IMG/VR virus record: IMGVR_UViG_3300045988_154997
Span: 32,001 to 96,000 of that record
Length of the DNA stretch: 64,000 nucleotides
Source of the DNA: a virus
Lineage: Duplodnaviria; Heunggongvirae; Uroviricota; Caudoviricetes
Direction: 5' to 3' (one strand)
The notes beneath the pieces are model-generated. The model worked only from the letters and a program-made list of their open reading frames with translations. It made no database searches and was not told where the DNA came from. Position numbers and translations under genes: made by a program. Positions 3,346-55,858 of this stretch are shown here, in pieces (the stretch's first letter is position 1; every line of letters begins with the position of its first letter).

Positions 3346-3440
3346 GCGTTTTTCCTTTGTTTTCTAATGAGCTTTCAACTTCTTATATAAATATACCATC
3401 AAATATCGTAAGTGATTACTTATCATTAAGGCTATTCTAA

Positions 3441-5549: not shown

Positions 5550-5647
5550 GGCTAATCCTTTGTTATGAAAACAAATTATTTACTAGTGTGTTTAATGTAG
5601 CACTGCGCGAACAGGGAACTAAGCCATTCGCGCAGGGAGAAGAGGGG

Positions 5648-6111: not shown

Positions 6112-6498
6112 ATGTCTGATAACAAGATTGAATTTATAGAAAGTCGCTACGCTGCTTTTATCGCAGGGTTGATTGAATCCTCACCTATGAGCCAGGCCCA
6201 GATAGCCAAAACAATTGGGTATAAAAACGCCAACAACCTTTCTTTAATTAAAAGCGGCAAAATTCCTTTGCCTATCGATAAGGTTCGTCCGCTGGCGCTG
6301 GCACTGGGTATTGAGCCAAGTCGTCTTATGATGATGGTGCTGGAAGAACGCCAACCCGAACTCGCAGCATTTTTATACAAAGAAGGCACTGCTCCTCTTA
6401 ACGAGGACGAAAAACAGGTTCTTGCTGCATATAACGAGCGATTCGGTAAAGAGAAAGGCGCATCACAAAAGGTTGTTGAGGCCATAAAGTCTCTATGA
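6112..6498 (+). CDS. HTH (Cro/CI-type) DNA-binding protein
   Basis: SQAQIAKTIGYKNANNLSLIKSGK resembles an XRE-type helix-turn-helix; ATG at 6112 with AAGG RBS preferred over the track's GTG at 6106. Confidence 0.5.
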   Translation: MSDNKIEFIESRYAAFIAGLIESSPMSQAQIAKTIGYKNANNLSLIKSGKIPLPIDKVRPLALALGIEPSRLMMMVLEERQPELAAFLYKEGTAPLNEDEKQVLAAYNERFGKEKGASQKVVEAIKSL

Positions 6499-8794: not shown

Positions 8795-8986
8795 AAACCT
8801 AAACTGTAAAGGCAACAAAAGGTGAAATAATAACTCATTAAAAGCACATTGTGTGAAATTTTAATCTGATAATTCATATATCGGAAGGGATTTTAGATAT
8901 TTTTAATATTTATAACTGTCCTTTTCATAGATATAGTTGATTTGAGCGCACACTTTCATGTAAAAAGCCGCCTAAGCGGCTCTTAA

Positions 8987-9232
8987 TTATAATGTACTCA
9001 CCAGAGCGGCGAATTCCGTATAGCCACCGATAGATTCGCCATTTACGAACACCTGCGGTATGGTCTCCACCGGCTTGCCAACCAGGGCGCTCAATTTCTC
9101 TTTGTCTATCCCAGCAGACACAATATCGATGTATTCGTAATCGCCAAAACCGTGACCGTGAAGCTGCTTCGCCAGCTCGACCGCACGTTTGCAGTATGAG
9201 CAGTTATCTCGTCCATAGATAGTGATCGTCAT
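8987..9232 (-). CDS. glutaredoxin-like protein
   Basis: 81 aa; N-terminal MTITIYGRDNCSYCKRA with a CxxC redox motif (CSYC) and overall glutaredoxin/NrdH-like layout. Confidence 0.75.
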   Translation of the reverse strand: MTITIYGRDNCSYCKRAVELAKQLHGHGFGDYEYIDIVSAGIDKEKLSALVGKPVETIPQVFVNGESIGGYTEFAALVSTL

Positions 9233-9372
9233 TGCTTTGCCTCGTTATGCGCTTCGCTGGGGAACGTGTAGCGGTTAGTGAAAGAGCTGAGGTGGTAGTG
9301 CTCGTGAATGTATGGATTTGACTTCTGCACCTGACGAGATGCGCGACGCGCATGTTTACATTTATTTCCCAT
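9229..9372 (-). CDS. small hypothetical protein (47 aa), translationally coupled to the glutaredoxin gene
   Basis: Internal ATG at 9372 preceded by GAAAGGA RBS; stop overlaps the glutaredoxin start (ATGA). The longer track ORF would start inside the conserved intergenic motif. Confidence 0.3.
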   Translation of the reverse strand: MGNKCKHARRASRQVQKSNPYIHEHYHLSSFTNRYTFPSEAHNEAKQ

Positions 9373-9428
9373 ATTGAGTCCTTTCAAGTGAGTATCCGAA
9401 AGAACTATACAGTTAACGTGCGTAAAAA

Positions 9429-9448
9429 GTAAGTGCTTACCTATCATT
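9429..9448. promoter_or_regulatory. recurrent intergenic motif GTAAGTGCTTACCTATCATT (palindromic core GTAAG-TG-CTTAC)
   Basis: Exact 13-mer CTTACCTATCATT also at 15558-15570 and 27927-27939; sits in the divergent region between the glutaredoxin operon and the 273-aa gene. Confidence 0.5.
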
Positions 9449-9521
9449 TATTGATAGAAGAATAGCCGCCTGTCGTGTGATACTATTTACAGAACTAAAC
9501 TGGCTTTCCACAAGGTGTAAA

Positions 9522-10343
9522 ATGACTATCCTTGAAAATCCTGATGCGAATGTTGAATCTGTTTATAGTCTTCATCCAACCACGTTGTTTCATTTTACAA
9601 AAAACGAAGATGCTTTCTATAGCATATTGGCTGAGAAATATTTTAAACCATTTCTTGCTCGCGAGGAAATAAGAGGAGTCGGGGGACGCAGGAGGTTTGC
9701 AGTACCAATGGTATCGTTTTGTGACATAAAACTATCACAAATCAGAGATCATAGCGGAAAATATGGAGAATTCGGTCTTGGGCTAACTAAGTCTTGGGCG
9801 GAAAAGAAAGGTCTACACCCAGTTCTATATATGAATAAGAGTAGTGAAATATTTTCTAAATACAATGCCAGAATTCGACTTATTAAAAATAAGTTGGTGC
9901 CGCTTTGGAAGGCTAGAGGAAATTTAGATACCAAAAACAGAATAGAGTTTGAGAAATTGAAAGCAGAATATTCTGATCTATATAATTTACTGCGTTATAT
10001 GAAAAATTACAGAGGCAAGCTAGAGCGAAAAGATAATAAAACAATAGAGAATTATATATATGCAGACGAGAAAGAGTGGCGTTATGTGCCAGCTCCTTTT
10101 ATTGGTGATTTATGGCCTAGTCTGAGTTTGGAGCGTGTTATCACTTCTGATGACAAAGCAAAAATTAGCTCAAAATTTTCAAAGTTTGGCATTGATTTTG
10201 AGTTCAATGATATAAAATATATACTTATACCTAAAGAACAACATATCCAAAAGCTAATTAACTTTCTCTCAGGTTTAGATGGATTTGAATCTTCAATTAT
10301 TAGCAAAATTCTGACCATGGATAAAGTAAAGCAAGATTTTTAA
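9522..10343 (+). CDS. DUF2971/Abi-like protein (tentative family assignment)
   Basis: ATG at 9522 with AAGGTG RBS. Motifs LFHFTK...FYSIL, FAVPMVSFCD...HSGKYGEFGLGL and C-terminal EKEWRYV echo the LYKY / MWSHY..HKGFCIGF / E.EWR pattern of the DUF2971-like protein at 23116-23835. AT-rich. Confidence 0.45.
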   Translation: MTILENPDANVESVYSLHPTTLFHFTKNEDAFYSILAEKYFKPFLAREEIRGVGGRRRFAVPMVSFCDIKLSQIRDHSGKYGEFGLGLTKSWAEKKGLHPVLYMNKSSEIFSKYNARIRLIKNKLVPLWKARGNLDTKNRIEFEKLKAEYSDLYNLLRYMKNYRGKLERKDNKTIENYIYADEKEWRYVPAPFIGDLWPSLSLERVITSDDKAKISSKFSKFGIDFEFNDIKYILIPKEQHIQKLINFLSGLDGFESSIISKILTMDKVKQDF

Positions 10344-10369
10344 TTTTTGGTTTAACGGGAGCCTAATTA

Positions 10370-11581
10370 GTGTCAATATTTTTAAGCGAAAAGGAAATGC
10401 AAAATTGGATAATTGACAAATTATCTGATCAAGATGGATTATATAATTCAATCATCAATATTGATAAATTAAATGAATTTAATCCGAAAAGACCCGAAGA
10501 GAAAAAAATTAAGGAGAGTTATCAGTTTTGTTTAAAGAACATAACATTGTTACATTTAATGACAGATGATGAGAATATCTCAGCAACAAAATCTGAGATA
10601 TTAAGACCTGATGTCGTTGCTTATTCAACAGAGAATGAATCCTTAGTTCTTATTGAGTTAAAAAATTTTTCAACACCAACAAGGGAAGCTGGAACTGAGC
10701 TAGTGGCATATGCTGCGGAACTAAAAAGTTACTTGTCATACTTGTCTGATGGAGATATTACCAATGTACTTATATCACCTGACTGGCCACCTTTGGTTAG
10801 ACACTTTATTTTTAATATGATCGTGTGGCAGAAGAAAAACTTTCTATGTTTAGAACCTTGCTATGATTTACAAGGTAACGTATCACTTACTCCTTTAGAT
10901 ATTAATAAATTAGTTATTGCGGAAGAAGCACTCAAGTTCTCATTTCGTCATCTTGGCGGGTTTCATATATGTTTGTATGATGATGAAATGTATAATCAAC
11001 CGACTTCCACTTCTCGTTTACATTCGAAATTGAATGTTATTAAAGCCAGCATGGCAAAAATGTCCTCAGACGGTGAAAAGACTAATAGCCATGGGTTTGC
11101 TATTTTATGTAGAAATTTGAACGAGAGAACTTTAGCACCATATACGATTACTCTAGTTAATGTTTCTGCGTTTTCTTCCATAGAGCGATACTTTCATTCG
11201 CCACAAATATCCAATGCTTCTCAACTCCCTAGAATAGGACAAAAAATTTATGACATTTACACTCATTACCAACCATCAGGTTTTGGGGCATCAATGTCGA
11301 AAATTTACAATTCTGGGAGGGCATATTTAGAAAAAATTAATTGCAAGCCGCGGATCGAGGTTATAGACACCTGGGATGTATTGCAAGTACATACACATGC
11401 GCCTTATATGGAAATGGTTCATATTGAAACGTGGGGAGTTTTTAAAGAAAAATTGATTGAAGGTCTAAATGAATGTTATGAGGATGAATATTACACACCT
11501 GATTTTAACGATGTAGATTTTTGCATGGTGTGTATTGAATCCTTAATTGACCAGAATTATGAATTTATAAAACTTTTTTGA
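10370..11581 (+). CDS. PD-(D/E)xK nuclease-like protein with unknown C-terminal domain
   Basis: N-terminal ILRPDVVAYSTENESLVLIELKNFS fits a D ... E-x-K restriction-endonuclease-fold signature; GTG start at 10370 with GGGAG RBS; 403 aa; about 33% GC. Confidence 0.5.
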   Translation: MSIFLSEKEMQNWIIDKLSDQDGLYNSIINIDKLNEFNPKRPEEKKIKESYQFCLKNITLLHLMTDDENISATKSEILRPDVVAYSTENESLVLIELKNFSTPTREAGTELVAYAAELKSYLSYLSDGDITNVLISPDWPPLVRHFIFNMIVWQKKNFLCLEPCYDLQGNVSLTPLDINKLVIAEEALKFSFRHLGGFHICLYDDEMYNQPTSTSRLHSKLNVIKASMAKMSSDGEKTNSHGFAILCRNLNERTLAPYTITLVNVSAFSSIERYFHSPQISNASQLPRIGQKIYDIYTHYQPSGFGASMSKIYNSGRAYLEKINCKPRIEVIDTWDVLQVHTHAPYMEMVHIETWGVFKEKLIEGLNECYEDEYYTPDFNDVDFCMVCIESLIDQNYEFIKLF

Positions 11582-11584
11582 AGA

Positions 11585-11604
11585 AAAGGGGCCGAAGCCC
11601 CTTT
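11585..11604. terminator. stem-loop AAAGGGGC-cgaa-GCCCCTTT, probable intrinsic terminator, likely bidirectional
   Basis: Directly after the stop at 11579-11581; on the minus strand it is followed by TTTTCTTC, so it also ends the tRNA transcript. Confidence 0.55.
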
Positions 11605-11680
11605 GAATATTGCGCTGAAAAAAAGTGTTGCTAGGATGTTAGCAAGCTATGGTTAAGAACGTCTGCCGTAATTGTCAATC

Positions 11681-11758
11681 ACAGCGTTGAGCGGTCTGGT
11701 TTATGTTAGCGGAGTCTTAATCGAGTTGATTAAAAGGCCAAACCGCTCAACGCTGTGT
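11681..11758. repeat. 16-bp perfect inverted repeat (CACAGCGTTGAGCGGT / ACCGCTCAACGCTGTG) forming a long hairpin abutting the tRNA-Ser 3' end
   Basis: Read directly; arms separated by 46 nt. Confidence 0.6.
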
Positions 11759-11759
11759 C

Positions 11760-11846
11760 TGGCGGAGAGTAATGGAATCGAACCATCATCGTTTGCACAA
11801 TGGGACGATTTTCAAGACCGCTTGAGCACCATGCTCCCTACTCTCC
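11760..11846 (-). tRNA. tRNA-Ser (anticodon TGA), type II with long variable arm, CCA encoded
   Basis: Minus-strand sequence GGAGAGT...CGGTCTTGAAAATCG...GGTTCGATTCC...ACTCTCCGCCA: 7-bp acceptor stem, anticodon loop CTTGAAA, T-loop TTCGATT. Confidence 0.7.
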
Positions 11847-12070
11847 GGCCGTTGTGGTGGCCGGTACTGAATCTCCGGCATACGGTGCAGCCAATTAGGA
11901 CTACGGACGATCACCGCTCGCGAAAGGGAAGATTTGCGGCCGCATTTCCCTAACATCCAAGAAAGCTATCGCATCAGTCTGCGAATCCACCACAACGGTA
12001 AGATCACTACCTTTCGACCAGTCATTGTGCACATGAACGACGATTAACCGTAATGATCTTATCGTTGTAT

Positions 12071-12147
12071 TGGTGCCGGTTAACGGACTCGAACCGCTGA
12101 CATCCTGCTTACAAGGCAGGCGCTCTACCAACTGAGCTAAACCGGCA
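12071..12147 (-). tRNA. tRNA-Thr (anticodon TGT), CCA encoded
   Basis: TGCCGGT-TT-AGCTCAGTTGGTAGAGC-G-CCTGC-CTTGTAA-GCAGG-ATGTC-AGCGG-TTCGAGT-CCGTT-AACCGGCA-CCA; canonical cloverleaf. Confidence 0.85.
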
Positions 12148-12150
12148 ATT

Positions 12151-12237
12151 TGGTGGGGAGTGATGGAGTCGAACCACCCGAGTCGCAATGACAGTAGATT
12201 TACAGTCTGTCCCGCTACCTCTACGGACTAACTCCCC
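12151..12237 (-). tRNA. tRNA-Tyr (anticodon GTA), type II, CCA encoded; two non-canonical pairs in the anticodon stem
   Basis: Anticodon arm and variable arm AGACTGTAAATCT.C.GTCAT closely resemble E. coli tRNA-Tyr as recalled from memory; acceptor GGGGAGT/ACTCCCC; T-loop TTCGACT. Confidence 0.65.
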
Positions 12238-12242
12238 TAAAT

Positions 12243-12317
12243 TGGCGATGGTGGGTGGATTCGAACCACCGACCAGTTGGTTAACAGCCAACTGCTCTAC
12301 CGCTGAGCTACACCATC
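12243..12317 (-). tRNA. tRNA-Asn (anticodon GTT), CCA encoded
   Basis: GATGGTG-TA-GCTC-AGCGGTA-GAGC-A-GTTGG-CTGTTAA-CCAAC-TGGTC-GGTGG-TTCGAAT-CCACC-CACCATC-G-CCA. Confidence 0.85.
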
Positions 12318-12581
12318 AATTCAGCACTGCCAGTATTTATTACTCAACAGTGCCAATCGCGGCGGTGTTAGTTTCTGCCAGGAAACACACCGCTACTGGC
12401 ACTTTCCGTTAGTGCCAGACGTTTTCGACTTCGCTCAATAGAAGGCAAAATCTTTAAGTAGATGATGTTTCTGAGGACAGCACCTACTTTGTAATTTATA
12501 CAATGTGATGTATGGAATCATTTGTTGTGAAAACAGGCACTAATGGCAACAGTGGTTAAACCTATACAACAATCCTGTCTT

Positions 12582-12703
12582 CACAACGTTGAGGCCACTA
12601 CTCCGATTGAATGTTTGCCCAACATGTTACATATCAACGCTCGCCGGTATCTCTGTGAATAGAACCTTAGAATTGATAAAAATGTAATGGCCTCAACGTT
12701 GTG
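12582..12703. repeat. 15-bp perfect inverted repeat (CACAACGTTGAGGCC / GGCCTCAACGTTGTG) separated by about 92 nt in an ORF-free region
   Basis: Read directly; similar in sequence to the arm of the 11681-11758 repeat (CACAgCGTTGAG). Confidence 0.6.
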
Positions 12704-12781
12704 TGCTGGCTAACCATACCAGCCGGGCTACGTCGCCGCTTTTTAACCCAGTATAAACGACATAATTGAACAAAATGACGT

Positions 12782-12857
12782 AACAGGATGGGCGGTCATT
12801 GGCTAAGAATCCGGGAGTCGTATATGAGTTGAAAATATACTGACCGCCCATTCTGTT
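12782..12857. repeat. 17-bp inverted repeat (AACAGGATGGGCGGTCA / TGACCGCCCATTCTGTT, one mismatch), spacer about 42 nt
   Basis: Read directly; followed by a further 9-bp hairpin GGAGGGAAC/GTTCCCTCC at 12867-12891. Confidence 0.55.
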
Positions 12858-13094
12858 ACTTCATCGGAGGGAACTCTCATGTTCCCTCCTGCGTTCTGCA
12901 ATCACACTCGCTCAGTGTGTCCCATTTCGGTAACGAGGCTGGAAACTGACCTCGCTGGTGTTTGGCTTATTAGGCTACTGCCAGATAGACTTCTTCGTTT
13001 GCACTTGTATTTAAGTTCAAACAGTCGCGTCTCAACGAAAACAAAGTCATCTTATACATAAAAGATAGGTAAGTAAATACTTATTATTGTATTT

Positions 13095-20895: not shown

Positions 20896-20938
20896 GTGCT
20901 TTCCTTTGTTTTTTAAACAAATTGTTTTCTAGTATTAG

Positions 20939-21876: not shown

Positions 21877-23073
21877 TTAAACATCTTTTAGAAAGCCTGG
21901 AAACCAATGTTTCATGATATACCTAAAATGTGCTCTAGTTGGTTCAAAAACCTGTCTAGATACCAGCGCTCCATCAGGATGATTCTGAACAGACTGTTCT
22001 TTTTCCATATCGTAAAAATTATGAGTTATCTCTGGGGGGAAGAAAATATTTCTGTCCAGTGGCACTGTCGCAAAAGGATTGTAGTAAATATGAAGGCCGT
22101 CAAAGTGCGTCTCTTCATGAGCAGTGGAATGGCAAACTACAATATCCGCACCAGTGACTTCGTTATTTAAAAAATGCCGATATGTAGTGATGAAATGATC
22201 AGGACCTATCCTTTGTGTGTGCTTTCCCTCGTTTTTCATCCCTTCATTGGCGATGAAATCATTCACATCAATGGCTCGATATCGTGTTGACCTTACATAT
22301 CTACCGATACCGCTTTGAACCACGGCTTTTCCAAAAGTGCCGGTGGTGGAGAAAATAACCGCACTTATTTCTTTATATGAGTCGTTAGTAAATATACCTA
22401 ATGGAATTTCAACGTCTTCATTCTTTTTGATTGAGGTAACTTTAGTTTGGCTGCCAGTCACCAAATTTCTGGTGGTAGGTTCCTCAATGCCAAACAACAC
22501 TCGATTGATGATTGTGTTATTTTGAGACAATGATAAATCGGAGTCAAAGGGTGCAAGCGCCAGAACAAACGGCTTATTAACTACATGAGACATCGTAGAG
22601 TACGGGAATTTTTTGCCATTAACTCCTGTAAAAAGATCATGTTTGTCTTTGATTTTTCCGATTAATTTTAGCGTTGATTGATGTTTGAATTTTGATTCGC
22701 TAAAAAGAGCACCTGCAGGTGGATTATGTGGCCGATCTGATATCACAGCTTCGACGTTAAACTGGTAGCCTGACGGTGTAGTAACACAGAAATCGGGACT
22801 GTCTTTTGTGTAGTCGACAGAATAATCGAGACGAATAAACATTTCGTTCAGATACAATTCCCATAAGGCGGAATTGAAGGTTGTCTGAAACTCTTTAACG
22901 AATTTAGTCTGCTCACCGCTACGCTCCAGTAACCCACGCCCCCACGACTGTATCACTTCTCTTACTGGAGCATATGTATTATCTTGATAAATCTGTTTAA
23001 AAGATTCGTGCAGCTTGTTTTTTGCTATTTTGGTTGAGAACAAATCCATTATTAGCCTCACTAACCAGTTCAA
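21877..23073 (-). CDS. hypothetical protein (398 aa), AT-rich
   Basis: ORF only; no recognisable motif; adjacent to the DUF2971-like gene. Confidence 0.5.
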   Translation of the reverse strand: MNWLVRLIMDLFSTKIAKNKLHESFKQIYQDNTYAPVREVIQSWGRGLLERSGEQTKFVKEFQTTFNSALWELYLNEMFIRLDYSVDYTKDSPDFCVTTPSGYQFNVEAVISDRPHNPPAGALFSESKFKHQSTLKLIGKIKDKHDLFTGVNGKKFPYSTMSHVVNKPFVLALAPFDSDLSLSQNNTIINRVLFGIEEPTTRNLVTGSQTKVTSIKKNEDVEIPLGIFTNDSYKEISAVIFSTTGTFGKAVVQSGIGRYVRSTRYRAIDVNDFIANEGMKNEGKHTQRIGPDHFITTYRHFLNNEVTGADIVVCHSTAHEETHFDGLHIYYNPFATVPLDRNIFFPPEITHNFYDMEKEQSVQNHPDGALVSRQVFEPTRAHFRYIMKHWFPGFLKDV

Positions 23074-23115: not shown

Positions 23116-23835
23116 CTACTTCAGCTTTTCTTTGACAAGAAGATAACCATCATCAGGTGTACTCATTTTGTAAACCTCGATGCTCGTGTCTAGCTGTGTC
23201 CGGGCATATTCTTCTACTTCAGGAGAAACGTTATACCCAAGAATGATCTCTCTAATATATTTCTTATCAAATGCCTGAGCGCCTATTTTTTTAGTAATAA
23301 CCCTTTGTTCTTCCTCATATTTCCAGCATTCGTGCTTGTAGAAAAAGAGCTTATCAAAAAGTACCTTAAACTCATCTGTAACTTCATCGAACACGGGAAC
23401 AGAAGGTATATATTTCACATTATCAAAGCTGTGATACCCCTCAATAGAGGTAACAAAATCATCATCAAAGCCTATGCAGAAACCTTTATGCGACACTGAG
23501 TAATGTGACCACATCAAGATGTTATCTTCGTTTGGTGACAAGCACACCACACCAAAAGCCCCTAATGATTCTTTCCGCAAATCCACAGCCAACGATTTTG
23601 CAGCTTCAGGAGCTACAGCATCCCAGTCTTCAAAGGAAAAATCCTTACATCCATTGTCTTCAAAGTGTTTCCGGCGCTCCACTTCTGTACCTCCCATCGT
23701 TATCGAAACTTTGAACTCTGATGGGTCGTTGAATGAAGAAGGTGCGCTAGCAGAGATAGTGCCGTCCTCTACAAACCGTTTGAGGTTACGTAACACTTTT
23801 TGCGAATCTTCACTTCCAATATATTTGTAGAGCAT
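23116..23835 (-). CDS. DUF2971-family protein
   Basis: From the ATG at 23835: MLYKYIGSEDSQKVL...SFNDPSEF, ILMWSHYSVSHKGFCIGFD, ECWKYEEEQRV, the signature pattern I recall for DUF2971. Track start at 23874 is a TTG. Confidence 0.55.
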   Translation of the reverse strand: MLYKYIGSEDSQKVLRNLKRFVEDGTISASAPSSFNDPSEFKVSITMGGTEVERRKHFEDNGCKDFSFEDWDAVAPEAAKSLAVDLRKESLGAFGVVCLSPNEDNILMWSHYSVSHKGFCIGFDDDFVTSIEGYHSFDNVKYIPSVPVFDEVTDEFKVLFDKLFFYKHECWKYEEEQRVITKKIGAQAFDKKYIREIILGYNVSPEVEEYARTQLDTSIEVYKMSTPDDGYLLVKEKLK

Positions 23836-23879
23836 TAGGGAACCTATAGAAAGAGGTGCCAAGCAGCACCTCAATAAAA

Positions 23880-24239
23880 TTAACCTTTCTTCATCAACTC
23901 GCGTTTGATTTCATCGGTACGCATCGTGACGTCGGCAGCAGTGATCGCCTCGTTAAGTTTCACGATATCCTCGATTTCCTGCGGCGACTTCTCTGCCAGA
24001 TGGAAAATAGCAGCACGAATCACATCAGAGCGGGTGAATTTCTCGAAGCGAGGGATGAACTTCATCATCTCCAGCAGTTCGAAGTATTCGTCTTCCAGTG
24101 ACATTGTGCGGCTTTTAATTTTCTCTTTGCCACGAGTCGGGCGTCCCTGTGGTCTGACTGGTTGGCGCAAAGGAGTTGTGTTCTTAGCCGGTGCATCAGG
24201 CTCTTTGCGCTTTGCTAGGTCACCCATTTTCATGGACAT
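23880..24239 (-). CDS. small partition partner of ParA (ParG-like ribbon-helix-helix candidate)
   Basis: 119 aa, basic disordered N-terminus and C-terminal MSLEDEYFELLEMM ... RSDVIRAAIFHLAE; directly downstream of parA with a 1-nt overlap. Confidence 0.45.
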   Translation of the reverse strand: MSMKMGDLAKRKEPDAPAKNTTPLRQPVRPQGRPTRGKEKIKSRTMSLEDEYFELLEMMKFIPRFEKFTRSDVIRAAIFHLAEKSPQEIEDIVKLNEAITAADVTMRTDEIKRELMKKG

Positions 24240-24907
24240 TATTCTTCTTCCTCCAGACTCAACAGATAATCTACAAATTCTTCAAACTCGGCTTCCGCCT
24301 TTTTGTCGCGCTCGCTACCGGTCATTTCAAAGATAGAACGACCAGACTCTTCCGCATCATCGTAGACGTTGCGGTTATATAGATTGACAGGCGCAGACTC
24401 GATGCCAAACGTCTCGACAATCTCTTTAGCCGCCAGAATGCGAGACACTTGTGATGGCAAAGCCGGGCACTGGTTCATGACCGCGCGGACCTTCACTTTA
24501 TCGTTTACATTGCGAACATTGTCGATAATAGGATCGATGTCACGTAAAGATTTCAAATCACGACGCTTAGGACGCAGCGGGATAATGATAACGTCAGCCA
24601 TCAGCATCGCTTGTCGCTGAATTTCGGAGTCGAAGCCACCAGCATCTACCACTACATACTCAGCTCTACCCTGAAGCGATTTTAGGTGCTTAATGATGTC
24701 ATCCTGAACGTATGCAAAAGGAATCAGCTCAAGGTCTTCGTTCTGTCGACGGTCTTCACACCAGCTCGTTGTCGTGCGCTGAATATCTATATCGGTGATA
24801 TAAACCTTCTTCTTCTTTTTGACTTTCAGGCAAACGGCAATTTGCTGGGCAACGGTGGATTTGCCAGGCCCGCCCTTTGTGCCGCCAACCACAAAGATCT
24901 TGGTCAT
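24239..24907 (-). CDS. parA: ParA/MinD-family partition ATPase (small type Ib-like)
   Basis: Deviant Walker A GGTKGGPGKST near the N-terminus; 222 aa without an N-terminal HTH extension. Confidence 0.8.
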   Translation of the reverse strand: MTKIFVVGGTKGGPGKSTVAQQIAVCLKVKKKKKVYITDIDIQRTTTSWCEDRRQNEDLELIPFAYVQDDIIKHLKSLQGRAEYVVVDAGGFDSEIQRQAMLMADVIIIPLRPKRRDLKSLRDIDPIIDNVRNVNDKVKVRAVMNQCPALPSQVSRILAAKEIVETFGIESAPVNLYNRNVYDDAEESGRSIFEMTGSERDKKAEAEFEEFVDYLLSLEEEE

Positions 24908-25039
24908 TGGAGAGTTCCCTTTGCGTATATAATTATCGTCTGAAACAACTTGTTTTCTTATATGTGATATAGCCTAAATGCCTACGGCTGTGGTGTAAAG
25001 GTTTAATGATAGGTACATAGATTTGGTAAGGACTTAATA

Positions 25040-25064
25040 ACAAAAAACCCGCCGTAGCGGGTTT
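25040..25064 (-). terminator. intrinsic terminator (AAACCCGC-tacg-GCGGGTT plus TTTTTTG on the minus strand)
   Basis: Immediately downstream of the stop at 25070. Confidence 0.6.
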
Positions 25065-25069
25065 AGGAA

Positions 25070-25846
25070 TTAGTGGTTGGTAGACCTGGCATCAAATGTT
25101 GTAACGCCCACTTCAATGTGGCGGTCTTCTTTGGAGATGATGGTGAGAATCTGACTAGATGGGTCTATGCTGACAGCCATAGGGTTCCAGTGACGTAACT
25201 GAGCCTCGCTGTTCAATAGCAGCGCATCCCACGGTTTGACGCCATTCTGCCCAATACCACCTTCAACAAGGACATCTATAAATTCTTTATTTAAATTGTC
25301 ATAGATTTGGACACGCCCGACCAGAAGCATACCGACCGCCCAAATTCTGGCACCGTAAACCGTCTGATGGTCATCACATACCACATGGTCATGCCAATTG
25401 AGAAGGAAATTGTAAACTCTTCTAGCAAGTCCCTTTTGTTCCTTTGAAGGGGTTACAAATGCCCCTTTGATCTGGACACCAAGGTGAGAGCCTTTTTGTG
25501 AGCGAAACTGGAAACGTTTGTAGACGAACCTGGCAATCTGAATGCCGTCATCATCTTCTTGTTCATCACCAACTAACTCACGAACACTATGAACTATCTC
25601 TGCTTCTGAATACCCCTGCTCGTCAAGATCCATTGCATGTTCTTGAAGCCAATCTGCATCAGGGTCGCCTACAAATGATACTGTCAAACAGTAATCATAA
25701 TTAGATCCCGTCAAGGACCATTCTGTGAGCCGTAAAACAGAAAAATCAGAGTTAACCATGTAGCCAACTCTGATTTTCTCTCTTGCTTCACATTCAGGGA
25801 AATCAGACAGAACTTTTGAATACTCTGCTATGAATGATGGTGACAT
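25070..25846 (-). CDS. hypothetical protein (258 aa)
   Basis: ORF only. Confidence 0.5.
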   Translation of the reverse strand: MSPSFIAEYSKVLSDFPECEAREKIRVGYMVNSDFSVLRLTEWSLTGSNYDYCLTVSFVGDPDADWLQEHAMDLDEQGYSEAEIVHSVRELVGDEQEDDDGIQIARFVYKRFQFRSQKGSHLGVQIKGAFVTPSKEQKGLARRVYNFLLNWHDHVVCDDHQTVYGARIWAVGMLLVGRVQIYDNLNKEFIDVLVEGGIGQNGVKPWDALLLNSEAQLRHWNPMAVSIDPSSQILTIISKEDRHIEVGVTTFDARSTNH

Positions 25847-33489: not shown

Positions 33490-36400
33490 TTACAGAAGGC
33501 CAATTCTTACTCGTAGGACGTTGTTATCGTCATAAACGTCAATCCGCTGACCATTTATGACCAGTCGCCCATTACCCCCGCTATTACCGTTGATCTCAAG
33601 CGTTCCATTTTTGCCGAACCGCCATCCAGATCTACCGCTAACAAAATTGGTAGATTGCAGATCGCCTACTTTTGCATTGGTGATTGTGCCATCCTTGATA
33701 TACGCACCATTCATATAGGCGATACTGTTTTCGATAACAAATGGCGTGGTGATCTTCCCGTTAACAGAGTTGACCAAACCAAACCTGTCAGCCTGCACCA
33801 AAAACTGAGAAAGGCCAGTGGTGTCGATACCAAGCGCAATACCAGCAACATACTTCTGCCCTCCGCTCGTTGAAGTTTCCATTTTCAACGTCCACGCGGT
33901 TGACACTTTTTTGTTGGTATCAGCAATAGCTGTTGCCTGCTGTTGAATTGTCGCGGTATTTCCATCCACCTCTGCTTTCAGAGTATCGATTCGCCCACTC
34001 AGAGCATTATCTGCCTGCGTTCTCGCTGTCGTTTCAGTTGTTACCGCCGCGGAAATGTTGGCTGCCGTTTGAGACTCTAAGTTTGTGATTTGAGTCGCCA
34101 ATGCAGCATCTTGCTCTGTACGCGTTTTCGTTTCGGTTGCTACAGCCGCTTTAATATCCTCTTTGTATTGAGAGGTCAGCTTGGTGATCTGAGACGACAA
34201 CGCCGAGTCAGCATCAGTTCGAGCCTGCGTTTCAACTGCAACGGCCGCACTAATATCTTTCGCTGTCTGTGCTTTTAAACTTGAAACCTCTTTTGTTAAA
34301 GCGGTATCACCATCAGCACGAGCCGTTGTTTCTCTGGCAAGAGATGCCTCGAGATCATTAGCTTTTGCTGTAAGAGACGAAATCTGAGTGGACAATGCAC
34401 TATCGGCATCAGTCCTTGCCTTTGTCTCTACAGCAACCGCTGCGGCAATATCAGTTCCGGTTTGTGCTCGCAGGCTGTTAATTTCTCGTGAGAGCGCCTG
34501 GTCAGCACTTGCTCTGGCCTCCTGCTCCTGAGTGATGGCAGCGGATATATCACCGTCAACCTTTGACTGAAGCTGGTTTATTTGTTTGGCTAACGCAGAG
34601 TCCCCGCTTGCTCGGGCCTCCTGCTCACTACGTATTGCAGCAGAAATATCATCATCAACCTTTGCCTGAAGTTGGGTGATCTGGCTTGCCAGAGCCGAAT
34701 CTTCCGTTGCTCGGGCTTCTTGCTCTTCCTTAATAGCTGCGACGATATCGTTGCTTACTTTCGACTCAAGCTGAGTGATCTGTGTCGTCAGAGCTTCATC
34801 GGCAGATGTGCGAGCCTCCTGCTCTGTACTAATCGCCGCGCTGATATCTCCTTCAAACTTAGATTGCAGCTGAGTGACACGCTTTGCCAACGCTTCATCG
34901 CCATCGGCACGAGCGGTGGACTCTTCCAGAATACTGGCCTTAATGTCTTCGCCAATTTCTACGCGAATTTCCTCAACCTTCGTGGCCATTGCAGACATAT
35001 CATCAGCAAAGGTTTTCTGTGTTGTTGCGATCTTCGCGTTATTGACCATCTGCTTGTGCTGGTCTTCATCTTGACGAAGAGCCAGGTCAATATTTGTTTT
35101 GGCTAACGCCTCAATGTTCGTAGTCAGTTCTGCACTGGCACGATCGACCTCTGCAACCGTCTTTTTCATTTCTTCAACGGCAGCGGAGCTTTCCTCTACC
35201 GTTGACTGCAACACTTCCAGTTGTTTAGCGTTTGCAGCATCGCCTTCAACACGAGCCTCGCTTTCCTTAGCAATAAGAGCCGCCGCTTCATCTCTTGCAG
35301 CCTTTATTGCCTCGACTGTATTAGCGAGAGCTTTATCGTGTTCAGATACGGTGTTTTCGATTTCAACAATTGCAGCATCAGTAGCATCAATTTTTTCAAA
35401 CGCTTCATTGACCTTGTCGATCGTTGCCGAAACCTCACCTTTAAGCTCGGTTTGTGCGTTCTCCAAAGCATCGCTACGCTCGTTGAATTTTATTTCAAAA
35501 CCCGCGAGGTTATCGCTGAACTGCTTATCTAATTCAGCTATATCTTCCTTAACGTCGTTTACCGACCCCTCCAAAGATTCGACGCTCTGGTTGATATGCT
35601 CATTTAACTCGTCAACTGCTTCTTGAGAGGCTTTGCTGTTGATGTCCTCAAGCAGAGCCTGACCAAGCTCGGAAGATGTAATTTTGCCAGCCAGGAACGA
35701 CAGTACATCGCGAGTTGTCGCCTCTGTACCCAAGTTTGAGTTCGGAGGGCTTAACATACCTCGCTTGTTCGATGCTCGAACCCAGTAATACCACGTTTCG
35801 CTATCCCCAAGACCAGCATGTGTAAAGGTGGTGCTTGCAGACTCTGCGATCAGTTTCGCCGTATCCAGATTGTTGGTCTGGGATGCGTAAACATTAATGT
35901 GATCAAGGTCTACCGAATCTGGATTAACCCAATTCAGTATCACATTACGATAGTCTCCAACGGCCGTTAATGACGTTGGTGCATCCGGCGGTGTCATTGT
36001 GCCCAGCACCTGATAAACGGTACTGATAATTTCTGTTTTTTTACCGTTGAATGAAACCGCATACAGTTGGAAGTCGTAGCGTCCATTCTCCGCGACATTA
36101 ACGATTTCGTATTGCTCTTCGGTTACACGCGCCGATTGCCAGTTCGATACATTGTTTTCATCAGAACGTCGCCAACTGATCCAATACTCTGGAGATTTCC
36201 CTTCCCATGTTGCAGTCAGTTTTACTGACAGGTTGCCCGGGCTTGAGAGGTAAGTCCCTTCAGTGATTTGCAAATTAGACGGCTTGGAGTAAGTCGGGTC
36301 CAATACCGTCGTATTCTGCGGGATAAGCGTTGCACCATTGTCGATCGCCTCATATTTAGACGGATTGTTTTCAACAGCGGTGATGTCAAAGCTACCCGAC

Positions 36401-38220
36401 GTTTCCCCCTGAGCGATGTTAACGATGCGAACGCGCATAGGTTCGAGATCTGGTTCTGTAATTGTCCAGACACCGTTCAAAACAGGCGTTTCCGCTGACG
36501 ACAGAGCTTTTGAAAACGTAACCTTTGTTATGTTTTCGCCAGTTTCAAGAACATCGCGCTCAACGATTTTGCCTTCCTGATTCAATATCCGAATAAAGCT
36601 GCCGCTTTTAGCTAACGACACAGGCGCATCGAGAGTGATGCTGTTTTTGGTAAACTCCACAATTCGACCGGAGTTACGTTTACCTGCACGATATTTGTTC
36701 TGAATCAGAACGGTTTCACCGGGCATCAGAAATGAGGCGTCTAAGCCGGCAGTAAATGTAATTACATCCGACTCCATTCTGGCGGTATACAAAAGCCACA
36801 AACCAACTCGGTGAGCCTGGCCTCGGCTTGTACATCCAAATGCTACGACTTCTGTTTTACGCTCACCATAACGGCGCATTGCGTCCTGATCTTCAACGTA
36901 CTCGATATTTTGCTTATAACCGTCCTCCTTGTTGTTGTAGGTTACGAGCGCAACGGATGGGCGATCTTTACGCGCAGAACCTTTATAGGTAAACAGTCCA
37001 TCTTTGACGTTGGAGTTGGTAAACATCATTACCGGATCTGATGGGCTATCCTGCATGATGTTAACCATGCCACCAGCCCAAAACACCATGCCGCGGAATG
37101 CACCGGCAATATCCTGAATTAATCGGTATGCGTCTTGTCGACTGGTGATCTGCGTATTGATTGCAAAGCGTTTCTCTTTACCCCCAAAGCCATCATCGAC
37201 CTCTTCGTCACAATATCGACCAATCTGGTAGAGCTGGCCGAGGTCAATCATGGATTCCGACACAAATTGCCCAAGACCATACCGAGTATTGGTAAGCAAA
37301 TCGTAGAGAATCCACGCAGGGTTTGAAGAAGACAACAGCTTAAAAGTACCGTCCCATACGCCGACATAAGTATTGGTGTATTCGTTGTAGTTTGACGGTA
37401 CTCGGATTTTGATACCGCGCACCAAATACGAACGGGAAGGCATTGTGCTACCAAACTGCTCTGAATTGACCTTCAAGCCAACAAGAGCAGAGTTAGGGTA
37501 GTTCATTGGCGTGTCGACAATCTCACCGATGGAATCAACCCATGTGTCGTTGTAGAGGTACTGGCTACTGTTATCATCTGTAAGACGAATCACCCTAACC
37601 TTGTATGCACGACCAGGCTTAGGTAGTTTCAGCTCATAGCTACGGTAATACACGCCTGTTTTCTTTGCCGTTAGCGTGATATCAACGCTTTTCTCACCTT
37701 CTGCCACCACATCAGAAAATGTTGCGTCTCCGTTGGCGATCTGGAATTTGTACTTCACCGTAGTGCCATTTGTATCGCCAGAGCTTTTATCAACGCTACG
37801 TAAAGAGGGGAATTTCATGATGACACGAACGCGATCAGCTTCATCGTTATCGATTGAAACCGTAACGTCGTGTGTTTTTTTAAGCTGAATATTTACGGAC
37901 TTAGGCGTTTCAACAAAATCAAAACCAGCCATTGGCGTCTGGTCTTGTGAGCCGTCACGAAAATCCCATGTAATACCGCTGAAGTTGGAAGAGCCATCTT
38001 CATTCAAGATCGGTAAATCGTCGATGAAGATCGACTTTGCGCCATTTACCAGGCCACCGATAACCCCCTCGCCAAGAAGGTCGAGGATGGCTGCCATAGC
38101 ACGAGAATTGACAGTATCATCAGCTTCAACCGGGGTACGGCTGGAGCTTTTACTTTTCTTGCCACCAGCACCGGCAATAAGAAGCGGTAATTTTTTCTTC
38201 TTGAACTGTTCCATGTCCAA
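33490..38220 (-). CDS. central tail fibre / host specificity protein (lambda J-like) with extended coiled-coil repeat region
   Basis: 1576 aa; N-terminal two-thirds read as J-like with fibronectin-III-type segments; about 11 tandem 28-aa repeats (EQEARASGDSALAKQINQLQSKVDGDISAAI-like); sits downstream of gpI/K/L/M homologues. Confidence 0.8.
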   Translation of the reverse strand: MDMEQFKKKKLPLLIAGAGGKKSKSSSRTPVEADDTVNSRAMAAILDLLGEGVIGGLVNGAKSIFIDDLPILNEDGSSNFSGITWDFRDGSQDQTPMAGFDFVETPKSVNIQLKKTHDVTVSIDNDEADRVRVIMKFPSLRSVDKSSGDTNGTTVKYKFQIANGDATFSDVVAEGEKSVDITLTAKKTGVYYRSYELKLPKPGRAYKVRVIRLTDDNSSQYLYNDTWVDSIGEIVDTPMNYPNSALVGLKVNSEQFGSTMPSRSYLVRGIKIRVPSNYNEYTNTYVGVWDGTFKLLSSSNPAWILYDLLTNTRYGLGQFVSESMIDLGQLYQIGRYCDEEVDDGFGGKEKRFAINTQITSRQDAYRLIQDIAGAFRGMVFWAGGMVNIMQDSPSDPVMMFTNSNVKDGLFTYKGSARKDRPSVALVTYNNKEDGYKQNIEYVEDQDAMRRYGERKTEVVAFGCTSRGQAHRVGLWLLYTARMESDVITFTAGLDASFLMPGETVLIQNKYRAGKRNSGRIVEFTKNSITLDAPVSLAKSGSFIRILNQEGKIVERDVLETGENITKVTFSKALSSAETPVLNGVWTITEPDLEPMRVRIVNIAQGETSGSFDITAVENNPSKYEAIDNGATLIPQNTTVLDPTYSKPSNLQITEGTYLSSPGNLSVKLTATWEGKSPEYWISWRRSDENNVSNWQSARVTEEQYEIVNVAENGRYDFQLYAVSFNGKKTEIISTVYQVLGTMTPPDAPTSLTAVGDYRNVILNWVNPDSVDLDHINVYASQTNNLDTAKLIAESASTTFTHAGLGDSETWYYWVRASNKRGMLSPPNSNLGTEATTRDVLSFLAGKITSSELGQALLEDINSKASQEAVDELNEHINQSVESLEGSVNDVKEDIAELDKQFSDNLAGFEIKFNERSDALENAQTELKGEVSATIDKVNEAFEKIDATDAAIVEIENTVSEHDKALANTVEAIKAARDEAAALIAKESEARVEGDAANAKQLEVLQSTVEESSAAVEEMKKTVAEVDRASAELTTNIEALAKTNIDLALRQDEDQHKQMVNNAKIATTQKTFADDMSAMATKVEEIRVEIGEDIKASILEESTARADGDEALAKRVTQLQSKFEGDISAAISTEQEARTSADEALTTQITQLESKVSNDIVAAIKEEQEARATEDSALASQITQLQAKVDDDISAAIRSEQEARASGDSALAKQINQLQSKVDGDISAAITQEQEARASADQALSREINSLRAQTGTDIAAAVAVETKARTDADSALSTQISSLTAKANDLEASLARETTARADGDTALTKEVSSLKAQTAKDISAAVAVETQARTDADSALSSQITKLTSQYKEDIKAAVATETKTRTEQDAALATQITNLESQTAANISAAVTTETTARTQADNALSGRIDTLKAEVDGNTATIQQQATAIADTNKKVSTAWTLKMETSTSGGQKYVAGIALGIDTTGLSQFLVQADRFGLVNSVNGKITTPFVIENSIAYMNGAYIKDGTITNAKVGDLQSTNFVSGRSGWRFGKNGTLEINGNSGGNGRLVINGQRIDVYDDNNVLRVRIGLL
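33990..35000 (-). repeat. tandem roughly 84-bp coding repeats inside the J-like gene (boundaries approximate)
   Basis: Protein-level periodicity of about 28 aa; generates shadow ORFs on the plus strand. Confidence 0.55.
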
Positions 38221-55742: not shown

Positions 55743-55858
55743 AGATCCCTCTAAAACACACAGAGCGCGTCCATGCGCTCTAAAACAACTTGTTTACTGC
55801 ATCTGCTAACCAACTTGTTTTCTGGGGTGTTTAATTAGGTCTGGCATGTCTTACGAAG

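What the first reader, a model, noticed from the sequence alone, without database searches (positions are those of the whole stretch)
23880..25064. Plasmid-type partition cassette (small ParA plus RHH-like partner) inside a phage genome: phage-plasmid lifestyle
A 222-aa ParA with deviant Walker A and no N-terminal HTH, followed by a 119-aa basic protein with a ribbon-helix-helix-like C-terminus, is the architecture of type Ib plasmid partition systems. Together with the tyrosine recombinase and lox-like site, and alongside complete virion, lysis and replication modules, this argues that the element is maintained as an extrachromosomal prophage. The SSU5/pHCM2/pMT1-like resemblance is from memory of that group's gene content.
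Basis: partly seen in the sequence, partly recalled or inferred. Interest (0 to 1): 0.5.

Follow-up and report, generated by a model that had tools for sequence, protein, structure and literature searches.

The report
Partition cassette of an SSU5-like phage-plasmid
This is the plasmid-segregation module (a small ParA ATPase plus an uncharacterised partner protein) of a well-known group of E. coli/Salmonella viruses that live as free plasmids; the module is real and probably functional but largely expected, and the only open points are the partner's fold and the still-unidentified centromere.

Summary
A 222-aa ParA (24239-24907, minus strand) has a deviant Walker A (KGGPGKS) and no HTH. Its stop overlaps (TAATG) the start of a 119-aa basic protein (23880-24239). 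Terminator-like hairpins bracket the pair.

The window is 100% identical to the circular 112.6-kb E. coli plasmid pYLPM7a, an SSU5-like phage-plasmid. In 261 complete E. coli genomes the cassette sits on plasmids in 262 of 262 places, never on a chromosome. The phage-plasmid reading is right, and already known for this group.

ParA's closest solved relative is ParF of TP228 (type Ib). The partner belongs to an orphan family (18 representatives among 1.84 billion proteins) that always follows this ParA, down to 31% identity. It has a disordered basic tail with an invariant N-terminal "MGDLAK" peptide and a helical domain. The ribbon-helix-helix call rests only on consistent sub-threshold hits; three fold searches found nothing.

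No iterated parS array exists. Instead, a 58-nt upstream core is 93-98% conserved where synonymous sites are 53-77%. It holds a promoter and a 13-bp palindrome that recurs at 17 sites, almost all just upstream of operon starts. Best reading: an uncharacterised type Ib-like partition system; centromere unidentified.

The parts
24239..24907 (-). parA: a 222-aa small Walker-type partition ATPase of the ParF/type Ib kind, with no HTH domain
   Evidence: The ORF is. Pfam gives AAA_31, MipZ, CbiA and VirC1. NCBIfam ParA_partition aligns residues 9-213 to model positions 6-202 of 203 at 115 bits, below the 180-bit cut-off. PHROG 164 'ParA-like partition protein' scores E 2e-51. The best solved match is TP228 ParF (4dzz/5u1g), E 3e-10. 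The KGGPGKS motif is shown.
23880..24239 (-). Partner gene: 119 aa, the putative centromere-binding and ParA-activating protein. It has an invariant N-terminal MGDLAK peptide, a basic disordered tail (residues 1-47) and a four-helix domain (48-117) with an RHH-like strand-helix-helix signature at about residues 42-85.
   Evidence: The ORF is and the TAATG overlap with parA. The family alignments are A1-A3. The AlphaFold model has pLDDT 72.7, with residues 1-23 below 50. The family is an orphan.
24944..25001 (-). A 58-nt non-coding core under strong constraint (-94 to -36 from the parA ATG). It is the candidate operator and/or centromere for the partner.
   Evidence: It is 93-98% identical in six lineages whose parA synonymous third positions are 53-77% identical. 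It diverges (59-68%) only in the lineage where the partner is about 50% identical.
24971..24999 (-). Putative sigma-70 promoter: TTTACA (24999-24994), a 17-nt spacer, then TAGGCT (24976-24971)
   Evidence: I read it from the alignment. The same TTTACA-N17-TAGGCT arrangement lies upstream of parA in the distant locus L013. The consensus scanner did not call it, because the -10 hexamer matches only 3 of 6 positions.
24943..24955 (-). A 13-bp palindrome, AAACAAGTTGTTT, between the promoter and the RBS. It is one copy of a plasmid-wide operator-like element.
   Evidence: In the window there are 17 matches at up to 2 mismatches against 3.6 expected. In the whole plasmid there are 9 exact copies against 0.05 expected. 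Copies share position and flanks at most sites, just upstream of gene starts. The element is conserved in the Klebsiella relative (16 exact copies).
24959..24971 (-). A second palindrome, TATAT-CNC-ATATA, specific to the par promoter. Its central base varies (A, G or C) among relatives.
   Evidence: It is not over-represented elsewhere in the window (7 matches against 3.9 expected).
25045..25064 (-). Terminator-like hairpin of the preceding gene; it marks the upstream boundary of the par transcription unit
23853..23872 (-). Terminator-like hairpin 8 nt after the partner's stop codon; it marks the downstream boundary of the unit
   Evidence: Conservation among relatives ends at 23880.

Best explanation
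The cassette is the active-partition module of an SSU5-like phage-plasmid prophage, which is kept as a low-copy circular episome.

Shown here: a small ParF-like Walker ATPase and a downstream gene form one conserved transcription unit with overlapping stop and start codons, and that unit is found only on about 100-120-kb plasmids and phages.

Inferred mechanism, by analogy with TP228 ParF/ParG and pSM19035 delta/omega:
- The 119-aa partner dimerises through its helical, probably ribbon-helix-helix-like, domain.
- It binds specific DNA, most likely within the constrained 58-nt promoter core. There it would both autoregulate the operon and nucleate the partition complex.
- Its disordered basic N-terminal tail presents the invariant MGDLAK(R) peptide to the ATP-bound, nucleoid-associated ParA dimer.
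- This stimulates ATP hydrolysis, and sister plasmid copies are moved apart by a diffusion-ratchet.

The par promoter additionally carries a 13-bp palindrome that recurs just upstream of more than a dozen other operon starts on the plasmid. So par expression is probably also wired into a phage-wide regulatory circuit whose binding protein is unknown.
For: ParA family and motifs are. Overlapping stop/start codons (TAATG) and flanking terminators are.

The ParA-partner pairing holds in all relatives, down to 31% partner identity, always after the tail-fibre and lysis genes.

The partner's layout matches type Ib centromere-binding proteins. It has a disordered basic tail (pLDDT below 50 for residues 1-23; pI 11.4 for residues 1-47) followed by a folded domain. 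An invariant Gly is followed four residues later by Lys (MGDLAK), which resembles the Gly16/Arg19 ParA-activating motif of ParG described in PMC5393062.

RHH-type hits recur in register. Eleven of 15 members hit aCcr1 (best E 1.6e-4), 2 hit RHH_1 (E 5e-3), 1 hits ParD, and pRN1 ORF56 appears at E 1.2.

The upstream core is far more conserved than synonymous sites, and it co-diverges with the partner in the L011/L012 lineage.

The element is extrachromosomal everywhere: 262 of 262 places in E. coli genomes, and 774 plasmid records of which 740 are non-mobilizable. No other parA-type gene is listed in PLSDB's (incomplete) annotation of pYLPM7a.

In the Cyrano lysogen the partner gene is transcribed 9-fold above prophage background, and the episome is at about 5.5 copies (PMC9928086). 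pCXC100 ParB is a precedent for a type Ib centromere-binding protein that was undetectable by sequence yet proved to be RHH (PMC3074162, abstract).
Against: - No stability, DNA-binding or ATPase data exist for this system; I found none in the paper library.
- No iterated centromere array lies next to the cassette, unlike classical type Ib systems.
- ParA scores below NCBIfam's equivalog cut-off (115 bits against 180).
- At about 5.5 copies per chromosome, random segregation would already be moderately effective, so the contribution of active partition is unmeasured.
Confidence: 0.8

Rival explanations
1. It is a partition system, but the partner is also a KorB/omega-like global regulator. On this reading it binds the 13-bp palindromes dispersed across the plasmid. 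Those sites would double as dispersed centromeres (as recalled for N15) and would couple segregation to repression of replication and virion operons.
For: The palindrome sits in the par promoter and at 16 further sites (17 in all), most of them just upstream of gene starts, including those of the DnaB-like helicase, the small-terminase-like gene and nrdB. It is conserved in a relative with about 49% partner identity. The partner's putative DNA-reading strand, SRTxSxE, is invariant. pSM19035 omega is an RHH centromere-binding protein that binds several promoters (PMC9499535 and PMC2441792 abstracts). The RK2 KorB and N15 precedents are from my own knowledge.
Against: pMT1 lacks both the small ParA and the partner, yet keeps 4 exact palindromes (about 0 expected) at homologous promoters. 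Two of them are more perfect than in pYLPM7a. The distant loci L013 and L014 keep the partner's invariant strand but have no clear palindrome in their par promoters. An HTH regulator next to the integrase co-occurs with the whole supergroup, pMT1 included, and is an equally good or better candidate binder. The pMT1 argument is weakened because shared ancestry alone could preserve the sites.
Confidence: 0.12
2. The true centromere-binding partner of ParA is one of the two ParB_N-domain proteins encoded 32 kb away (57763-59111). The 119-aa protein would then be an unrelated accessory or regulator.
For: Two ParB N-terminal-domain proteins are present (Pfam ParB_N, E 3e-13 and 1e-8). Surveillance papers use an SSU5 'parB' as a typing marker (10.1101/2025.09.12.675607).
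Against: These genes lie in a separate operon with an ABC-type ATPase, upstream of the terminase genes. They are only about 222-226 aa, and Pfam finds no domain in them other than ParB_N. pMT1 retains them at 88-90% identity although it has lost the small ParA, so they do not depend on it. The 119-aa gene, in contrast, overlaps parA (TAATG) and is strictly co-inherited with it.
Confidence: 0.04
3. The pair is not a DNA-partition system. The partner would be a RelE/ParE-type toxin (as annotated in phage Cyrano), or ParA would be a MipZ/MinD-like positioning or defence ATPase (RefSeq sometimes names it 'division plane positioning ATPase MipZ').
For: The Cyrano record names the partner 'RelE/ParE putative toxin'. 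Pfam MipZ hits ParA at E 2.7e-13. The flanking genes are anti-phage defence genes.
Against: The partner and its family have no ParE/RelE match in Pfam or NCBIfam, even at E up to 10. The MipZ hit covers only residues 4-132, whereas ParF and ParA_partition align over the full length. Neither protein matches any PADLOC defence model. The flanks vary between relatives while the cassette is constant.
Confidence: 0.04

Closest known systems
TP228 ParF-ParG-parH (type Ib partition system)
   Same: Both have a small Walker ATPase (206 aa against 222 aa) without an HTH, and ParF is the best solved-structure match. In both, a small downstream partner has a disordered N-terminal tail carrying a Gly plus a basic residue, followed by a folded DNA-binding domain. 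In TP228 autoregulation is carried out by the partner (PMC5393062).
   Different: The partner here is 119 aa rather than 76 aa. It has two extra C-terminal helices and no detectable homology to ParG. No array of short repeat boxes lies upstream. ParA scores below the NCBIfam equivalog threshold.
pSM19035 delta-omega (type Ib; an RHH protein acting as both regulator and centromere binder)
   Same: Both pair a small ParA with a small partner whose binding sites lie in promoter regions. That provides a precedent for a centromere equal to an operator with no separate parS locus.
   Different: Omega binds arrays of 7-bp heptads, and no such array is present here. There is no sequence similarity.
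pCXC100 ParA-ParB (Leifsonia; type Ib)
   Same: Its centromere-binding protein had no detectable DNA-binding motif by sequence and was shown to be RHH only by crystallography (PMC3074162). The situation here is the same.
   Different: The host is Gram-positive and the sequence is unrelated. Its centromere repeats are defined.
P1 ParA-ParB-parS, and the pMT1/P7-type system (type Ia) of other phage-plasmids
   Same: They play the same biological role, which is active segregation of a prophage kept as a low-copy plasmid. pMT1 belongs to the same SSU5 supergroup.
   Different: Type Ia systems have a large ParA (about 400 aa) with an HTH and a large HTH ParB. pMT1 carries that system instead of this cassette.
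SSU5 gp033/gp034 and the SSU5_pHCM2 phage-plasmid group
   Same: These are direct orthologues. The cassette DNA is 86% identical and ParA is 92% identical, with the same synteny after the lysis genes.
   Different: SSU5_034 is annotated as 96 aa, but the full 119-aa overlapping ORF is present there too. The flanking accessory and defence genes differ.

Membership tests
Type Ib (small-ParA) plasmid partition system | Walker-type ParA of about 200-230 aa with a deviant Walker A and no N-terminal HTH domain | tested here: met
   ParA is 222 aa with KGGPGKS at residues 11-17, and the P-loop starts at residue 3. It aligns over its full length to ParF.
Type Ib (small-ParA) plasmid partition system | ParA passes a curated partition-ATPase model | tested here: inconclusive
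   NCBIfam NF041546 ParA_partition gives E 2.3e-33 and 115.5 bits with an end-to-end alignment, but this is below the 180-bit equivalog cut-off. PHROG 164 'ParA-like partition protein' gives E 2e-51.
Type Ib (small-ParA) plasmid partition system | A small centromere-binding-protein gene lies immediately downstream in the same operon | tested here: met
   The stop and start codons overlap (TAATG), one promoter region and one terminator serve the pair, and the pairing is conserved down to 31% partner identity.
Type Ib (small-ParA) plasmid partition system | The centromere-binding protein is a ribbon-helix-helix dimer | tested here: inconclusive
Type Ib (small-ParA) plasmid partition system | A flexible N-terminal tail of the centromere-binding protein carries a ParA-activating motif | tested here: inconclusive
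   A predicted disordered basic tail and an invariant MGDLAK peptide are present. Interaction with ParA and ATPase stimulation cannot be tested here.
Type Ib (small-ParA) plasmid partition system | A cis-acting centromere of iterated short repeats lies adjacent to the operon | tested here: not met
   No repeat array lies in or near 23700-25300. There is only a constrained 58-nt core with two different 13-bp palindromes and a TAGGC-N3-TAGGC direct repeat.
Type Ib (small-ParA) plasmid partition system | The system stabilises an otherwise unstable low-copy replicon | not testable with these tools
   This needs a plasmid-loss assay.
SSU5 supergroup phage-plasmid (SSU5_pHCM2-like) | Sequence identity and synteny with SSU5/pHCM2-type elements, including virion, lysis and replication genes | tested here: met
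   The window is 100% identical to pYLPM7a, and the cassette is 86% identical to SSU5 and 97.6% to Cyrano. Annotated genes include terminase, portal, capsid, tape measure, tail fibre, endolysin and holin homologues, DnaB-like helicase, primase, ligase and DnaE.
SSU5 supergroup phage-plasmid (SSU5_pHCM2-like) | Maintained extrachromosomally, not integrated | tested here: met
   The source record is circular, 112,588 bp. Across 261 complete E. coli genomes there are 0 chromosomal and 262 plasmid locations. Cyrano was measured at 5.5 copies (PMC9928086).
RelE/ParE toxin (annotation of the partner in phage Cyrano) | Match to ParE/RelE toxin family models | tested here: not met
   Pfam gave no such hit for any of 16 family members at E up to 10, and NCBIfam gave none for any of 15 members at E up to 1.

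The most novel reading that the evidence does not exclude
The orphan 119-aa partner is not a canonical RHH ParG-like protein. Instead it would be a new kind of centromere-binding protein that also acts as a plasmid-wide regulator. It would recognise the 13-bp AAACAA-N-TTGTTT palindromes found just upstream of more than a dozen operon starts (helicase, small terminase, nrdB and parA itself). Dispersed operator sites would then serve as the centromere, and segregation would be coupled to control of lytic genes. This would be a KorB/omega/N15-like logic in the most abundant enterobacterial phage-plasmid group.
Probability: 0.1. Interest if true: 0.65.

Novelty: new member of a known kind. Interest (0 to 1): 0.3.

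Why it matters
SSU5-like phage-plasmids are carried by about 5% of completely sequenced E. coli (261 of 5,426). They are also common in Klebsiella, Salmonella (pHCM2 of S. Typhi), Shigella and Enterobacter, and they carry defence, toxin-antitoxin and sometimes resistance genes. I found no experimental dissection of their segregation module. The partner is unnamed in RefSeq, truncated in some records and mis-named a toxin in one. Naming it correctly improves annotation of hundreds of records. Identifying the centromere and the binder of the dispersed palindrome would explain how these elements stay stably inherited and how lysogeny is controlled. It would also give incompatibility and curing handles. 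The lifestyle inference itself is textbook for this group and adds nothing new.

Tried and rejected
1. Iterated parS repeats upstream of parA. The repeat finder, TRF and a k-mer cluster scan found none near the cassette. The only strong arrays on the plasmid are iterons near the replication origin and a gene-free region, both outside the window.

2. Fold assignment of the partner.
- Two AlphaFold monomer models were made (pLDDT 63.3 and 72.7).
- The afdb50 library was unavailable.

3. Profile searches.
- Full-length and core profiles against PDB sequences gave nothing below E 0.4.
- A 1.84-billion-protein profile search and a second homology search with a core-only profile found only the same orphan family and no bridge to annotated domains.

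The references were unverified single sequences and the alignment mode was doubtful, so I give this no weight.

5. An apparent partner swap in L011 (RefSeq calls a 72-aa gene) is rejected. The full 121-aa family member is there, and the annotation is truncated.

6. The RelE/ParE toxin annotation is rejected because no family support exists.

7. Defence-system membership of ParA or the partner is rejected.

8. The gene-free repeat region (record 78043-79606) as a par-linked centromere cannot be supported. It is not conserved in the Klebsiella relative that has the cassette.

9. The palindrome as an RNA hairpin is judged unlikely, from inspection only. The stem would be 5-6 A-U/G-U-rich pairs with a 1-3-nt loop.
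Full report
**What is there**

The window region 23853-25064 contains, on the minus strand, a compact two-gene unit.
- parA lies at 24239-24907 and encodes 222 aa.
- A second ORF lies at 23880-24239 and encodes 119 aa.
- The second ORF's ATG overlaps the parA stop codon (TAATG). This overlap is kept in seven of nine lineages compared.
- A terminator-like hairpin of the preceding gene (25064-25045) and another 8 nt after the second ORF (23872-23853) bracket the unit.

ParA carries the deviant Walker A KGGPGKS (residues 11-17), a DxD Walker A' and a VVVDAGG Walker B. It starts directly with the P-loop fold, so it has no N-terminal HTH. The partner is basic (pI 9.56), entirely because of its first 47 residues (pI 11.4).

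**Where the window comes from**

The region is 100% identical to the circular 112,588-bp E. coli plasmid pYLPM7a (window base 1 = record base 10981). It is 98% identical to Escherichia phages PhiR41_1, CMS-2020a and Cyrano, 86% to Salmonella phage SSU5, and about 80% to Klebsiella phage-plasmids.

The annotation of the rest of the window shows the expected SSU5-type gene set:
- replication genes: DnaE, DNA ligase, primase and a DnaB-like helicase;
- a tyrosine integrase next to an HTH regulator;
- lysis genes: holin, endolysin and spanin homologues;
- virion genes: tail fibre, tape measure, capsid, portal and terminase.

SSU5-like elements are a described supergroup of phage-plasmids (PMC7969092). 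Cyrano (pLF82) was measured at about 5.5 copies per chromosome, and siphovirus particles with SSU5-like dimensions were attributed to it (PMC9928086).

Among 5,426 complete E. coli genomes, the cassette occurs in 261. All 262 places are on plasmids and none is on a chromosome. In PLSDB it is in 774 records, mostly 100-120 kb, and 740 of them are typed as non-mobilizable. The phage-plasmid lifestyle is thus strongly supported. It is also already known for this group.

**ParA**

- Pfam assigns AAA_31, MipZ, CbiA and VirC1.
- NCBIfam's "ParA family partition ATPase" aligns end to end (E 2e-33), but at 115 bits it is below the 180-bit equivalog cut-off.
- PHROG 164 "ParA-like partition protein" matches at E 2e-51.
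- The best solved relatives are TP228 ParF, aligned over the full length at E 3e-10. MipZ aligns only over the N-terminal half.

By size and architecture this is the small class of Walker-box ParA. In that class, autoregulation and centromere binding are carried out by the partner protein (PMC5393062).

**The partner**

The partner has no Pfam family, belongs to PHROG 5111 (unknown function), and has no significant match among PDB sequences.

The family is tiny. A word-indexed search of 5.8 billion proteins found 25 clusters. An exhaustive profile search of 1.84 billion representatives found 18. A second search with a core-only profile added only fragments.

Every member examined in context follows a roughly 222-229-aa ParA, even at 40% and 31% identity. 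The position is the same each time, after the tail-fibre and lysis genes (loci L013 and L014). An apparent exception in a Klebsiella plasmid is an annotation truncation.

The alignments show four parts:
- an invariant N-terminal peptide, [MFL]-G-[DG]-L-x-K;
- a variable linker;
- a basic stretch, PVRPQGRPTRGK;
- a conserved I-K-S-R-T-x-S-x-E-[DE]-E segment, followed by helices that include the invariant [ST]-R-S-D-V-x-R-A-A.

The better AlphaFold model (pLDDT 72.7) predicts no regular structure before residue 48, with confidence below 50 for residues 1-23. It predicts helices at 48-59, 70-82, 86-97 and 101-117.

This layout, a flexible basic tail with a Gly-plus-basic motif followed by a small DNA-binding domain, is that of ParG. 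In ParG, Gly16 and Arg19 of the tail dock into the ParF dimer and stimulate hydrolysis (PMC5393062).

**Is the partner's domain ribbon-helix-helix?**

The evidence is consistent but weak.
- Eleven of 15 members hit the RHH family aCcr1 (best E 1.6e-4; 21 bits against a cut-off of 60).
- Two members hit Pfam RHH_1 (E 5e-3 and 0.11), and one hits ParD antitoxin.
- The RHH protein ORF56 of pRN1 appears in register at E 1.2.

I therefore call the RHH fold probable, not shown. The RHH-like part is central in the protein, not C-terminal. The "RelE/ParE toxin" label in the Cyrano record has no support. pCXC100 ParB is a precedent for a type Ib centromere-binding protein that sequence methods could not classify (PMC3074162).

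**Cis-acting DNA**

The suggested check, iterated parS-like repeats upstream of parA, is negative. No array lies in or near the cassette.

Aligning ten lineages shows something else. Conservation always extends about 106 nt upstream of the ATG, to roughly 25014. A 58-nt core (24944-25001) is 93-98% identical in lineages where parA synonymous third positions are only 53-77% identical.

The core contains:
- a promoter-like TTTACA-N17-TAGGCT, with the same arrangement upstream of parA in the distant locus L013;
- an invariant spacer, CCGCAGCCGTAGGCATT (CCACAG... in this window), which includes a TAGGC-N3-TAGGC direct repeat;
- a par-specific palindrome, TATAT-CNC-ATATA, whose central base varies;
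- a second palindrome, AAACAAGTTGTTT.

In the lineage where the partner is only about 50% identical (L011 and L012), the par-specific part has diverged (59-68%) while the second palindrome persists. The invariant spacer and the par-specific palindrome are my best candidates for the partner's operator and centromere. This is inference.

**The second palindrome is plasmid-wide**

- In the whole plasmid, AAACAANTTGTTT occurs 9 times exactly (0.05 expected) and 17 times with at most one mismatch (0.35 expected).
- Fourteen of the 17 copies lie within 66 nt upstream of an annotated minus-strand gene start, and those with the conserved flank share one orientation. In the clearest cases the copy sits about 12-15 nt downstream of a -10-like hexamer.
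- Many copies share the flank ACACCAnnAAGA.
- Targets include the DnaB-like helicase (20915), the small-terminase-like gene (a pair at 55783 and 55808), a CobT-like gene (5569), nrdB and parA itself.
- The Klebsiella relative pKqq_SB1124_3 has 16 exact copies at equivalent places. Some promoters there are flanked by two copies 51 bp apart.

So the par promoter appears to belong to a phage-wide set of palindrome-bearing promoters.

**Who binds the palindrome is unknown**

- pMT1 has lost the small ParA and the partner and uses a type Ia ParA/ParB. It still keeps four exact copies at homologous promoters, together with the HTH regulator.
- L013 and L014 keep the partner's invariant strand but lack a clear palindrome in their par promoters.
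- The HTH regulator and integrase pair co-occurs with the whole supergroup.

These points favour a regulator other than the partner, but shared ancestry weakens the pMT1 argument. I put the KorB/omega/N15-like reading, in which the partner binds dispersed sites that double as centromeres, at about 0.1.

**Other candidates considered**

- The two ParB_N-domain proteins (57763-59111) sit in a separate operon with an ABC-type ATPase next to the terminase genes. pMT1 retains them without the small ParA. They are unlikely partners.
- Neither ParA nor the partner matches a defence model, although the genes just downstream do (PD-T7-5 and PDC-S31/DUF2971).

**Verdict**

This is the partition module of an SSU5-like phage-plasmid, with type Ib-like gene architecture.

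It fails one defining feature of classical type Ib systems, the adjacent repeat-array centromere. A second feature, an RHH centromere-binding protein, remains inconclusive. I therefore describe it as working like a type Ib system, not as a proven member.

I found no published functional study of it. The lifestyle conclusion is not new. The orphan partner, the constrained promoter core and the dispersed palindrome are modestly interesting leads.

Noticed in passing
window 5569-5581, 20915-20927, 24943-24955, 55783-55795, 55808-55820 (plus 12 sites outside the window on pYLPM7a): An operator-like 13-bp palindrome, AAACAANTTGTTT, occurs 9 times exactly (0.05 expected) and 17 times at up to 1 mismatch. 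Fourteen of the 17 copies lie within 66 nt upstream of an annotated gene start, in the clearest cases just downstream of a -10-like hexamer and with a shared flank. Targets include the helicase, small-terminase-like, CobT-like, nrdB and parA genes. It is conserved in a Klebsiella relative (16 exact copies) and in pMT1 (4 exact copies). The binding protein is unknown, and I found no description of it in the paper library.
   Followed up: partly
window 21877-23073 and 23116-23874 (minus strand): The two genes immediately downstream of the par cassette are anti-phage defence candidates: PD-T7-5 (E 1.5e-139) and PDC-S31/DUF2971 (E 2e-38). Both flanks of the cassette vary between relatives (toxin-antitoxin pairs, ApeA/HEPN, Abi_2 elsewhere), so the cassette sits between accessory-gene hotspots.
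   Followed up: partly
window 57101-59111 (minus strand): An operon of two short ParB_N-domain proteins (226 and 222 aa; about 32% identical to each other) plus an ABC-type ATPase lies upstream of the terminase genes. pMT1 retains it at 88-90% identity although it lacks the small ParA. Its function is unknown, and it is probably not the partition ParB.
   Followed up: partly
window 23880-24239; SSU5 locus L002 5999-6289; L011 2158-2376; Cyrano CYRAN_29: Public records handle the partner inconsistently. SSU5 (96 aa) and a Klebsiella RefSeq record (72 aa) truncate it, most call it 'hypothetical', and Cyrano calls it 'RelE/ParE putative toxin'. The full 119-121-aa ORF is present in all of them, and there is no toxin-family support.
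   Followed up: yes
outside the window: pYLPM7a record 78043-79606 (locus L016 about 3060-4630): A 1.5-kb gene-free, strand-biased A/C-rich region carries GCCATTAC four times at roughly 90-135-bp spacing and several AAACAACT half-sites. It is not conserved in the Klebsiella relative. It could be an origin, a non-coding RNA or a lineage-specific cis site.
   Followed up: partly
outside the window: pYLPM7a record about 1096-1620 and 112467-112553 (loci L017 and L016): Dense iteron-like repeats (ACAGCATAC and ACCGCTGA) lie where repA lies in pMT1. This is presumably the plasmid replication origin. The gene running across the record start is not in the PLSDB table.
   Followed up: no
window 6112-6498 (+) and 6493-7596 (-): An HTH_19 regulator (sub-threshold Pfam hit) overlaps the end of a tyrosine integrase convergently. 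The pair is conserved in 865 plasmid records, including Yersinia pMT1 and some Acinetobacter plasmids. In Cyrano it is annotated as the putative repressor and is transcribed 10-fold above background in lysogens. It is a candidate binder of the palindrome.
   Followed up: partly
window 34508-34725: A 99-bp tandem repeat (2.2 copies, 76% matches) lies inside the large phage tail protein gene (33490-38214).
   Followed up: no
window 8000-12000 and about 11600-13090: A low-GC stretch (0.37 against about 0.46 elsewhere) carries an AbiGi-family gene and hypothetical genes, probably acquired cargo. The adjacent 1.5 kb has no listed CDS. The syntenic place in Cyrano holds tRNA-Ser, tRNA-Thr and tRNA-Asn genes. 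I did not run a tRNA scan.
   Followed up: no
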